A DNA stretch of 64,000 nucleotides from a virus (Duplodnaviria; Caudoviricetes). The notes beneath the pieces are model-generated. The model had not been told where the DNA came from. It saw only the letters and a list, made by a program, of their open reading frames with translations, and searched no databases. Below, one piece after another: positions 30,361-30,428 of this stretch. Made by a program: the position numbers and the translations under genes. The stretch covers positions 1-64,000 of IMG/VR virus record IMGVR_UViG_3300021979_000003, one strand, 5' to 3'. How positions within the stretch are numbered: position 1 is the stretch's first letter; every line of letters starts with the position of its first letter.

Positions 30361-30428
30361 TGGTGCCCTGTTAGGGATTCAAACCCTACTCGTTGTGGTT
30401 TAGAGTCACTTGAGGATCGTCACAGGGC
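30361..30428 (-). ncRNA. D-arm-less tRNA-like RNA, loop CUCUAAA (nominal CUA anticodon)
   Basis: GCCCTGT/ACAGGGC acceptor, A73, CCA, TAGGG-TTTGAAT-CCCTA T-arm, no D stem. Confidence 0.75.

What the first reader, a model, noticed from the sequence alone, without database searches (positions are those of the whole stretch)
30361..30428. 68-nt D-arm-less tRNA-like RNA with a nominal amber (CUA) loop
Seen: perfect 7-bp acceptor, A73, encoded CCA, 5-bp T stem with UUUGAAU loop, and no D stem. The D-side strand can instead pair with the variable side (CUC/GAG, internal loop, GUG/CAC), extending the anticodon helix, with loop CUCUAAA. Inference: it is unlikely to be a normal decoder. Options are a decoy for anticodon nucleases or uncharged-tRNA sensors, a weak amber suppressor, or a ligand of a phage protein.
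Basis: partly seen in the sequence, partly recalled or inferred. Interest (0 to 1): 0.7.

Follow-up and report, generated by a model that had tools for sequence, protein, structure and literature searches.

The report
D-armless amber tRNA gating neighbour gene
A giant marine phage that otherwise uses the normal genetic code carries a stripped-down 68-base tRNA that reads the UAG stop codon, right in front of a small enzyme gene whose third codon is UAG; about 30 diverged phages keep the same pair, so the enzyme is probably made only when this tRNA overrides the stop.

Summary
Window 30361-30428 (minus strand) is a 68-nt tRNA-shaped gene with anticodon CUA and no D stem. Standard finders miss it.

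The fold is proven by relatives. In 22 homologues, 97% of cells pair and all 19 pairs show changes on both sides. The helix between the D-side strand and the variable region is real. A remnant G19-C56 elbow pair switches to A-U in the window.

It is probably a decoder. The next gene is a 126-codon cupin/2OG-oxygenase-like protein. It has a strong RBS, ATG at 30338 and TAG as codon 3.

All 30 non-redundant members of that gene's clade keep a TAG at codons 2-8, always followed by a purine. A CUA tRNA was found with nearly all, beside the gene in most. Two relatives with TAA instead have no such tRNA. The sister clade has neither feature.

The genome otherwise uses the standard code, and this is its only amber-headed gene. 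Best reading: a dedicated suppressor tRNA that licenses translation of its neighbour. Nothing here is experimental, and the inserted amino acid is unknown.

The scan has noted amber-gated genes (mostly Pth2) on other DNA. This target family and this tRNA architecture are different.

The parts
30361..30428 (-). 68-nt D-arm-less tRNA(CUA) gene (5' end at 30428, 3' CCA at 30363-30361)
   Evidence: Sequence. Model R2, built without the window, scores it at 72.1 bits, E 2.8e-20. Single copy in the 239-kb record.
30422..30428 (-). Acceptor stem, 5' strand (GCCCUGU); pairs with 30365-30371
   Evidence: 7 of 7 pairs; in 22 homologues 99.3% of cells pair and all 7 pairs change on both sides.
30415..30421 (-). 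7-nt linker GACGAUC replacing nt 8-9, the 5' D-stem strand and the D loop; its G-A is the G18-G19 remnant
   Evidence: Relatives have RAUGGUN. The second base is G when T-loop position 56 is C (18 sequences) and A when it is U (4 sequences, including the window): 22 of 22 Watson-Crick.
30412..30414 (-). Outer helix, 5' strand (CUC); pairs with GAG at 30389-30391, the former variable region
   Evidence: Helix 2: 96.5% of cells pair and all 4 pairs change on both sides (examples: UGUU/AACA, CUGA/UCAG, ACAC/GUGU).
30407..30409 (-). Inner anticodon helix, 5' strand (GUG); pairs with CAC at 30395-30397. A30406 and C30398 form the recurrent 31-39 A.C mismatch
   Evidence: Helix 3. The 31-39 position is C.A or A.C in 17 of 22 sequences.
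30399..30405 (-). Anticodon loop CUCUAAA; anticodon CUA at 30401-30403
   Evidence: UCUAA is invariant in all 22 homologues.
30372..30388 (-). T arm UAGGG-UUUGAAU-CCCUA, directly abutting the outer helix
   Evidence: Helix 4: 100% of cells pair and 5 of 5 pairs change on both sides.
30361..30371 (-). Acceptor 3' strand ACAGGGC, discriminator A, encoded CCA
   Evidence: The discriminator is A in 20 of 22 sequences.
30346..30351 (-). Shine-Dalgarno AGGAGA, 7 nt before the ATG
   Evidence: Sequence. A comparable RBS precedes the leader ATG in most relatives.
30330..30338 (-). Gene head ATG-ACA-TAG; the amber codon (30330-30332) is codon 3 and is followed by A
   Evidence: It is in frame with the ORF that the ORF listing starts at 30302.
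29958..30338 (-). Amber-headed gene, 126 codons plus stop: leader M-T-*-NKRNLIKPT, then a 114-aa cupin/2OG-Fe(II)-oxygenase-like core
   Evidence: phrog_13746, E 6.5e-35. HxD...H...R...S are invariant in 34 sequences. Weak matches to Pfam 2OG-FeII_Oxy_3 in 22 of 34 members. AlphaFold pLDDT 89, all-beta barrel; Foldseek hits are cupins and AspH.
29879..29955 (-). Canonical tRNA-Trp(CCA), starting 3 nt after the oxygenase stop codon (context: the module sits in a tRNA island)
30430..30906 (-). Upstream 158-aa ORF whose stop codon ends 1 nt before the tRNA 5' end (implies co-transcription and excision of the tRNA)
   Evidence: No promoter or terminator signal above background between the genes.

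Best explanation
The element is a working, structurally minimised amber-suppressor tRNA. It has lost the 5' strand of the D stem and most of the D loop. It keeps an L-shape because the old 3' D-stem strand now pairs with the variable region, and because a two-purine remnant of the D loop still pairs with the T loop (19-56). It is probably cut out of a polycistronic transcript and charged by a host synthetase; the amino acid is unknown, with Lys or Gln the usual fates of CUA tRNAs. It then reads the UAG that is codon 3 of the gene 22 nt downstream. That gene, a small cupin/2OG-Fe(II)-oxygenase-like enzyme, would therefore be made from its strong start site only while the phage's own suppressor out-competes release factor 1. 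This is a translational gate placed at the cheapest possible point, the first few codons. Shown: the fold, its conservation, the invariant CUA, the conserved early TAG, their co-occurrence, and the coding constraint after the TAG. Inferred: expression, charging, decoding, and the purpose of the gate.
For: (1) Structure: on 22 homologues 97.3% of cells pair, 19 of 19 pairs change on both sides, and the covariation score is 1.03 against 0.22 for shuffles and 0.11-0.14 for slid controls. The tertiary 19-56 pair is Watson-Crick in 22 of 22 sequences, with G-C switching to A-U in the window, in nt-1/L021 and in L040. UCUAA in the anticodon loop is invariant.

(2) Target: a strong RBS, ATG and TAG at codon 3 lie in frame with the conserved ORF.

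(3) Conservation: all 30 non-redundant members of the protein's 'RWGxD' clade keep a TAG at codons 2-8. The next base is A in 26 and G in 4, which by my own knowledge is the context that favours suppression. None of about 55 sister-clade genes has it. The TAG genes form one clade with support 99/93.

(4) The stretch after the TAG is translated. K-P-T is conserved with synonymous codon variation (Pro as CCA, CCT, CCG and CCC). Twelve loci have no ATG, GTG or TTG between the TAG and the core.

(5) Co-occurrence: a CUA tRNA lies within about 100 nt upstream or immediately downstream in about 21 loci, and 0.2-1.9 kb away in four more. It is 62 kb away in the one complete genome that lacked an adjacent copy. 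The two relatives that have TAA instead of TAG have an ATG at the core and no CUA tRNA in their flanks.

(6) In the 239-kb record this is the only gene with RBS + ATG + at most 8 codons + stop + continuing ORF, for any of the three stop codons.

(7) General pattern: after CUA tRNAs in unrelated viral contigs, the first ORF is interrupted within 12 codons by TAG 13 times, by TAA 0 times and by TGA once.
Against: To my knowledge no D-arm-less tRNA has been shown to work on a bacterial ribosome. In the window itself an in-frame ATG (30302) follows the leader, so a leaderless 114-aa protein could be made without suppression, although no Shine-Dalgarno precedes it. Twenty-two of 287 predicted genes of the record end in TAG, so an efficient suppressor would extend them. 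In three short contigs with a TAG-headed gene no CUA tRNA was found within the sequence held (L046, L056, L058). The tRNA partners are not all alike (68-75 nt, with or without a D stem), so partner replacement has occurred and strict co-evolution is not shown. The alignment used for pair counts was fitted to the model's structure.
Confidence: 0.7

Rival explanations
1. The TAG is a genuine stop. ATG-NNN-TAG would be a two- to seven-codon mini-ORF (uORF or minigene), and the enzyme would be made by re-initiation or coupling downstream. The CUA tRNA would be there for another reason, or would only modulate this.
For: Eighteen of 30 loci, including the window (ATG 30302), have an in-frame ATG or TTG near the start of the core. 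L052 and L053 carry TAA and evidently manage without read-through.
Against: Twelve loci have no ATG, GTG or TTG after the TAG. The residues between the TAG and the core are conserved with synonymous codon changes. The stop is always TAG in lineages with a CUA tRNA, never TGA, and TAA only where no tRNA is seen. The window's internal ATG has no RBS.
Confidence: 0.1
2. It is a general suppressor whose main job is global UAG read-through of host or phage genes, for example to make C-terminally extended proteins or to counter host interference. The TAG in the neighbouring gene would be only a side effect or a monitor.
For: Suppressor tRNA(CUA) genes are reported in standard-code jumbo phages with no known target (XacN1, PMC5852040; RsoM2USA, PMC8504454). 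Twenty-two genes of this record end in TAG.
Against: The XacN1 authors found nothing by reading through 18 amber stops. Here TAG joins of long ORFs are rarer than TGA or TAA joins. The tight physical and phylogenetic link to one TAG-headed gene is unexplained by a purely global role.
Confidence: 0.1
3. It is a non-decoding tRNA mimic: a decoy for anticodon nucleases or uncharged-tRNA sensors, or a ligand of a phage protein.
For: The D arm is missing, standard finders reject it, and the genome carries RNA-repair and translation-rescue genes (earlier notes e1-5406437 and e1-5406423; only the Pth2 gene was checked here).
Against: The loop does not copy a sense tRNA. The anticodon is invariably CUA and co-occurs with a conserved UAG. 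The acceptor stem, A73, CCA, T arm and elbow pair are all preserved as a charged, ribosome-bound tRNA would need.
Confidence: 0.05
4. The UAG encodes a special (non-standard) amino acid delivered by this unusual tRNA, as in the pyrrolysine system.
For: The loop CUCUAAA equals that of tRNA-Pyl as I recall it, and ARAGORN labels CUA tRNAs 'Pyl'. The tRNA shape is unusual, as tRNA-Pyl's is.
Against: No PylS and no other synthetase of the families searched occurs in the record, which is 54% complete. The TAG sits at a variable position (codon 2-8) in a poorly conserved leader, not in the catalytic core. The structural hallmarks of tRNA-Pyl are not met.
Confidence: 0.03

Closest known systems
Phage-encoded suppressor tRNA(CUA) of stop-codon-recoded phages (TAG read as Gln, 'code 15'; crAss-like, Lak and jumbo phages; e.g. 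PMC10879173, PMC13037316)
   Same: A phage-borne tRNA with anticodon CUA that reads in-frame TAG codons in phage genes. Many canonical CUA tRNAs in viral contigs share the C31.A39 mismatch and the CUCUAAA loop.
   Different: This genome is not recoded. Exactly one gene carries the TAG, always in its first 2-8 codons. The tRNA lacks the D stem and is invisible to ARAGORN and Rfam.
Orphan suppressor tRNAs of standard-code jumbo phages (Xanthomonas phage XacN1, PMC5852040; Ralstonia phage RsoM2USA, PMC8504454)
   Same: Standard-code giant phages that carry tRNA(CUA). The relative XaC1 carries the very module described here.
   Different: Those papers report that no target gene was found: they read through TAG at gene ends. 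Here the target is a TAG at the gene head, which annotation hides by starting the CDS later (nt-1 VPFG_00360, XaC1_459).
D-arm-lacking mitochondrial tRNAs (e.g. metazoan mt-tRNA-Ser(AGY), nematode mt tRNAs; own knowledge)
   Same: No D stem and a short replacement loop. ARAGORN's mitochondrial mode recognises the element as such.
   Different: The origin is a phage of bacteria rather than an organelle. The variable region is recruited to pair with the old 3' D-stem strand. The 19-56 elbow pair is kept and covaries, and CCA is encoded.
prfB (RF2) autoregulation through an early in-frame UGA (own knowledge)
   Same: An early in-frame stop codon makes the yield of a protein depend on the balance between termination and an alternative decoding event.
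   Different: prfB uses a +1 frameshift and senses its own product. Here a dedicated tRNA reads the stop, and no link between the enzyme and termination is shown.
pylT / tRNA-Pyl with single in-frame UAG in methylamine methyltransferase genes (own knowledge)
   Same: A dedicated, oddly shaped tRNA(CUA) encoded near genes that carry one in-frame UAG.
   Different: There is no pylS. The UAG is not at a catalytic position, and the structural details differ.

Membership tests
Canonical tRNA (Rfam RF00005; ARAGORN bacterial mode) | 7-bp acceptor stem, discriminator, 3' CCA | tested here: met
   (99.3% of cells pair; all 7 pairs change on both sides).
Canonical tRNA (Rfam RF00005; ARAGORN bacterial mode) | 5-bp T stem with 7-nt T loop that pairs with the D loop (G19-C56) | tested here: met
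   (100% of cells pair); the 19-56 equivalent is Watson-Crick in 22 of 22 sequences, and is A-U in the window.
Canonical tRNA (Rfam RF00005; ARAGORN bacterial mode) | Anticodon stem with 7-nt loop, U33, purine 37 | tested here: met
   Loop C-U-CUA-A-A. The stem is only 3 bp plus an A.C mismatch.
Canonical tRNA (Rfam RF00005; ARAGORN bacterial mode) | D stem-loop (10-13 paired with 22-25) | tested here: not met
   Only 7 nt lie between the acceptor and the outer helix, and no D stem appears in any fold or in the covariation model.
Canonical tRNA (Rfam RF00005; ARAGORN bacterial mode) | Scores above the family threshold | tested here: not met
   No RF00005 hit even at E <= 10. ARAGORN finds nothing at default or ps80 settings.
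Suppressor tRNA of a recoded (code 15) phage | Anticodon CUA | tested here: met
Suppressor tRNA of a recoded (code 15) phage | Many phage genes interrupted by in-frame TAG; coding density recovers when TAG is read as sense | tested here: not met
   ORF coverage is high under code 11 along all 239 kb. TAG joins are the rarest of the three stops, and only one amber-headed gene was found.
D-arm-lacking (mitochondrial-type) tRNA | D arm replaced by a short loop | tested here: met
   ARAGORN -mt calls it 'D-loop mtRNA (cta)'. See also the structure.
D-arm-lacking (mitochondrial-type) tRNA | Encoded in an organelle genome and served by specialised organellar factors | tested here: not met
   The record is a 239-kb virus contig, and its nearest cultured relative is Salicola phage SCTP-2.
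tRNA-Pyl / pyl system | pylS (and pylBCD) present | tested here: not met
   TIGR02367 gives no match in the record, which is 54% complete.
tRNA-Pyl / pyl system | 6-bp anticodon stem, 3-nt variable loop, D stem with a small loop (own knowledge of the family) | tested here: not met
   The anticodon stem has 3 bp plus a mismatch, 10 nt lie between the loop and the T stem, and there is no D stem.
2OG-Fe(II) oxygenase / cupin superfamily (partner gene) | HxD...H metal triad and a distal Arg/Ser on a double-stranded beta-helix | tested here: met
   H44, D46, H92, R102 and S106 are invariant in 34 sequences. pLDDT is 89 with an all-beta barrel. Foldseek hits are cupins and AspH at E ~1e-3.
2OG-Fe(II) oxygenase / cupin superfamily (partner gene) | Pfam gathering score for a 2OG-FeII_Oxy family | tested here: not met
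   The window protein scores 15 bits against a cut-off of 27. Twenty-two of 34 relatives match at E <= 1, best 3e-7. Superfamily resemblance only; the substrate is unknown.

The most novel reading that the evidence does not exclude
The pair is a self-contained natural 'suppression switch'. A minimal tRNA that host systems barely recognise sets the level of an oxygenase that itself acts on the translation machinery (a release factor, a ribosomal protein, EF-Tu or the tRNA). This would give feedback on UAG read-through during infection. The many TAG-containing '...RPP-stop' leaders seen after other phage CUA tRNAs would be the same sensing principle used as an attenuator.
Probability: 0.12. Interest if true: 0.9.

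Novelty: new variant of a known kind. Interest (0 to 1): 0.75.

Why it matters
(1) It gives a concrete, conserved target for suppressor tRNAs in phages that use the standard code. The XacN1 paper states this as an open question: it found no target gene (PMC5852040).

(2) It shows with strong covariation that phages of bacteria maintain tRNAs without a D stem. The D stem's place is taken by a helix between the old 3' D-stem strand and the variable region, while the elbow contact is kept. ARAGORN's bacterial mode and Rfam's tRNA model miss such genes, so phage tRNA counts are underestimates.

(3) Public annotations of cultured phages are wrong at this locus. In nt-1 the CDS is truncated, in XaC1 it starts at an internal ATG, and the tRNA is unannotated in both.

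(4) If it works as inferred, it is a naturally evolved amber gate with a minimal tRNA. That is of interest for orthogonal-tRNA engineering and for understanding how phages time gene expression.

(5) nt-1 infects Vibrio natriegens, so the hypothesis can be tested directly.

Tried and rejected
- **Genome-wide TAG recoding:** rejected.
- **Near-identical DNA in named phages:** none found.
- **Related loci through the upstream 158-aa ORF:** none found.
- **Rfam at E <= 10 on the element:** only noise hits (freshwater-2, a CRISPR repeat, a plastid UTR, Bacteroidales-1), none credible.
- **Plain MAFFT alignment of the tRNAs:** it pushed the length differences onto the 5' end and broke the acceptor register. 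I replaced it with a model-guided alignment.
- **Single-sequence MFE fold:** it disrupts the T arm. Rejected in favour of the covariation structure.
- **Inferring the amino acid from the nearest isoacceptor among 464 phage tRNAs:** scores were low and mixed, with a slight Lys lean. No conclusion.
- **Phage-encoded PylS, class IIb synthetase, Glu/Gln synthetase or release factor:** none found in the 54%-complete record.
- **Substrate of the enzyme from fold search:** only generic cupins and AspH came up. No inference possible.
- **Amber gating of this genome's Pth2 gene, as seen by the scan elsewhere:** not the case here.
- **My first tally that 34 of 34 clade members carry TAG:** corrected. 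L052 and L053 carry TAA, and L028 (RP12) was a false positive of my script.

Full report
**1. The observation**

On the minus strand, window 30428->30361 reads as a 68-nt RNA with these parts:
- a perfect 7-bp acceptor stem (GCCCUGU/ACAGGGC), discriminator A and an encoded CCA
- a 5-bp T stem with loop UUUGAAU
- a 7-nt loop CUCUAAA (anticodon CUA)
- only 16 nt between the acceptor stem and that loop, against 24-25 in a normal tRNA, so no D stem can form

ARAGORN in bacterial mode finds six ordinary tRNAs in the window but not this one. It still misses it at a relaxed threshold. Rfam's tRNA model gives no match even at E <= 10. ARAGORN's metazoan-mitochondrial mode does call it, as a tRNA with a D-replacement loop and anticodon CUA.

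**2. What the genome is**

The window is the first 64 kb of a 239-kb IMG/VR virus contig that CheckV rates 54% complete. Its nearest cultured relative is the 440-kb Salicola phage SCTP-2, with 66% identity in a tail protein.

The genome uses the standard code:
- ORFs of at least 120 codons under table 11 cover most of every 10-kb bin.
- Places where a single TAG separates two long frames are rarer than the same for TGA or TAA.
- Of 287 predicted genes, 192 end in TAA, 73 in TGA and 22 in TAG.

So the tRNA is not needed as a general decoder.

**3.

Twenty-two bases after the CCA lie AGGAGA, a 7-nt spacer and ATG (30338-30336). Codon 3 is TAG (30332-30330). The frame then runs on without a further stop into the 114-codon ORF that a mechanical ORF list starts at ATG 30302. 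That internal ATG has no Shine-Dalgarno.

The protein matches phrog_13746 at E 6.5e-35. It has an invariant HxD...H...R...S signature and weak Pfam similarity to 2OG-FeII_Oxy_3 in 22 of 34 relatives. It folds with pLDDT 89 into a small all-beta barrel whose nearest solved structures are generic cupins and aspartyl beta-hydroxylase. I call it a cupin/2OG-Fe(II)-oxygenase-like enzyme of unknown substrate.

**4. Relatives of the gene**

Searches with the protein and with a protein alignment returned 26 viral and 80 metagenomic loci, plus named phages. The family splits in two.

- In the clade that holds the window protein (core begins ...RWGxD), all 30 non-redundant loci have an ATG with an RBS, then a TAG at codon 2 to 8. 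A short leader follows that ends in K-P-T or a close variant just before the core.
- The base after the TAG is A in 26 loci and G in 4. By established knowledge (Bossi; Miller and Albertini), a 3' purine, above all A, favours amber suppression.
- The K-P-T codons vary synonymously: Pro appears as CCA, CCT, CCG and CCC, and Thr in four codons. So this stretch is translated in this frame.
- Twelve loci have no ATG, GTG or TTG at all between the TAG and the core, among them Vibrio phage nt-1.
- In the sister clade (core ...RWQxGRQ; about 55 loci, including Ralstonia phage RP12 and Pseudomonas phage Lu11) no gene has such a TAG.
- On a maximum-likelihood tree the TAG-headed genes are one side of a branch with support 99/93. 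This is compatible with one origin and long retention.

Two related loci, L052 and L053, carry TAA at the leader stop. They have an ATG exactly at the core and no CUA tRNA in their flanks. They look like lineages that lost the gate.

**5. Relatives of the tRNA**

A CUA tRNA accompanies the TAG-headed gene nearly everywhere. Positions found:
- 20-100 nt upstream: the window, XaC1, L009, L011, L013, L020, L023, L038, L047, L048, L055, L059 and L061
- immediately downstream of the stop codon: nt-1, L021, L039, L040, L044, L045, L049 and L054
- 0.2-0.7 kb upstream: L014, L015 and L057
- 1.9 kb upstream: L012, in record G001
- 62 kb away: the complete 344-kb genome G002 behind L022

Only three short contigs (L046, L056, L058) show a TAG-headed gene without a CUA tRNA in the sequence held. 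No sister-clade locus scored above ordinary tRNA background.

The partners range from near-canonical 72-75-nt tRNAs with a 3-bp D stem (L038, L048, G001, G002) to 68-71-nt forms like the window's. So the D arm has been reduced, or partners exchanged, within the clade.

**6. Structure by covariation**

I then aligned 22 confident members to it.
- 97.3% of 410 cells form standard pairs.
- All 19 pairs show changes on both sides.
- The covariation score is 1.03, against 0.22 for shuffles (0 of 500 reach it) and 0.11-0.14 when the 3' partners are slid by 1-3 columns.

All four helices are supported: acceptor (7 bp), an outer helix (3-4 bp; CUC/GAG in the window), an inner anticodon helix (3 bp; GUG/CAC) and the T stem (5 bp). 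The alignment was fitted to the model, which favours the structure, but the margin over the slid controls is large.

In canonical numbering, positions 22-48 are all still there. What has gone is the 5' D-stem strand and most of the D loop. The variable region (44-48) now pairs with the old 3' D-stem strand, giving a stacked arm about as long as the normal anticodon-plus-D stack.

The 7-9-nt linker carries a conserved purine pair (consensus RAUGGUN). Its second base is G in the 18 sequences whose T loop has C at position 56. It is A in the four whose T loop has U there: the window, nt-1, L021 and L040. That makes 22 of 22 Watson-Crick. This is what is expected if the G19-C56 elbow contact of the L-shape survives.

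Position 31-39 is a C.A or A.C mismatch in 17 of 22 sequences. Many canonical phage CUA tRNAs share that trait.

A second model, built from the 20 relatives only, scores the window element at 72.1 bits, E 2.8e-20. Ordinary tRNAs score 27 bits or less. The model finds one copy in the 239-kb record.

**7. How it most likely works**

The upstream ORF stops 1 nt before the tRNA. The oxygenase gene is followed after 2 nt by tRNA-Trp. No promoter or terminator signal stands out between them. The tRNA is therefore probably excised from a polycistronic RNA.

No PylS, class IIb or Glu/Gln-type synthetase and no release factor is encoded in the part of the genome held. Charging would then be by a host enzyme. 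Acceptor stems differ freely between relatives while A73 and the anticodon are kept. By textbook identity rules this points to enzymes that read U35 and A73 (Lys) or the CUA anticodon (Gln). Comparison with 464 labelled phage tRNAs gave no clear ancestry.

The charged tRNA would read the UAG at codon 3 in competition with RF1. Only then is the full protein made from the strong start. Placing the stop in the first codons means that failure costs a di- or tripeptide rather than a truncated protein. In the whole record this is the only gene with that head structure for any stop codon. Why this enzyme should be gated is not known.

**8. A wider pattern (seen in passing)**

A pattern scan for any tRNA(CUA) in viral contigs returned about 100 tRNA-shaped genes, mostly canonical. 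Only one, L170, has the oxygenase nearby, and it is also D-arm-reduced.

Many are followed within 15-45 nt by an RBS, an ATG and a leader with an in-frame TAG. The leader is often M-x(2-6)-*-I-(I)-R-P-P-stop or M-x-*-V-S-K-P-P-stop. Sometimes a long ORF follows instead.

After CUA tRNAs the first stop within 12 codons is TAG 13 times, TAA 0 times and TGA once. After other tRNAs in the same loci the counts are 23, 13 and 19, with many of those TAGs lying inside the next tRNA gene.

The oxygenase leader (*-[IV]-x-K-P-T) resembles these P-P-stop leaders. The scan's earlier notes describe amber-gated Pth2-like genes and leader switches on other DNA.

**9. Literature**

I found no description of this module. 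The XacN1 paper reports two suppressor tRNA(CUA) genes in a standard-code jumbo phage. It states that reading through 18 amber stops revealed no target gene. RsoM2USA is reported likewise. Work on recoded phages concerns genome-wide reassignment.

Among 50,697 phage records the module occurs only in XaC1, nt-1 and CZ01. In nt-1 and XaC1, the two records I opened, the tRNA is unannotated and the CDS starts too late.

**10. Verdict**

My confidence that this is a selected, tRNA-shaped RNA is about 0.95. My confidence that it decodes the neighbour's UAG is about 0.7. Everything beyond sequence and comparison remains to be shown at the bench.

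Noticed in passing
L173:3817-3960, L136, L206, L132, L193, L177, L228 (viral contigs; tRNA positions): Canonical phage tRNA(CUA) genes are followed within 15-45 nt by an RBS, an ATG and a tiny leader with an in-frame TAG that ends in Pro-Pro-stop. Examples: MKDFRL*IRPP, MRNYS*IIRPP, MKDFA*IIRPP, MKEFHS*IKKPP, MKS*IRPPP; also M(S/L)*VSKPP in L155 and L157. These look like arrest or attenuation peptides that sense whether UAG is being read through.
   Followed up: partly
L168 (~4006-4700), L166 (after the tandem CUA tRNAs at 8649-8774, minus strand), L153 (after 464-508), L152: Other long ORFs directly after CUA tRNAs begin with an early TAG: MS*IEFDCE... 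(about 192 aa), MMSEL*NHLKTH... (about 159 aa), MREL*NLNK..., MT*ITTYTF.... So there are amber-headed gene families other than the oxygenase and Pth2. The L153 tRNA is also D-arm-reduced (17-nt linker).
   Followed up: no
L005:1304-1380 and 1387-1463 (Vibrio phage nt-1); also L021:110-186: These are 77-nt tRNAs that ARAGORN labels Leu (anticodons UAA and CAA), but they lack the long variable arm that bacterial tRNA-Leu normally has. Their identity is unclear.
   Followed up: no
L005:1480-1890 (nt-1, HQ317393.2 about 90456-90881) and L006:1390-1836 (XaC1, OR258281.1): The public annotations are wrong at this locus. nt-1 CDS VPFG_00360 starts at an internal TTG and misses about 35 conserved residues. 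XaC1_459 starts at an internal ATG. The adjacent CUA tRNA is not annotated in either record.
   Followed up: yes
The genome thus holds two tRNAs with re-paired D and variable regions.
   Followed up: partly
window 30430-32235 (-): Four tandem small ORFs (158, 147, 158 and 139 aa) just upstream of the tRNA share a C-terminal motif F-x7-(F/L)-K-L-x2-P-E-L-Y (seen in the translations). No Pfam or PHROG match. They look like a tandem paralogue family.
   Followed up: no
L253:~1500-1572 = G001:120726-120797 (-): The CUA tRNA that partners the TAG-headed gene of L012 has loop CCCUAAA, with C where the near-universal U33 normally is.
   Followed up: no
L052:~1470-1500 and L053: Two related marine loci have TAA where all other clade members have TAG. 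They have an ATG at the core start and no CUA tRNA within 1.5 kb. This is probably a secondary loss of the gate.
   Followed up: partly
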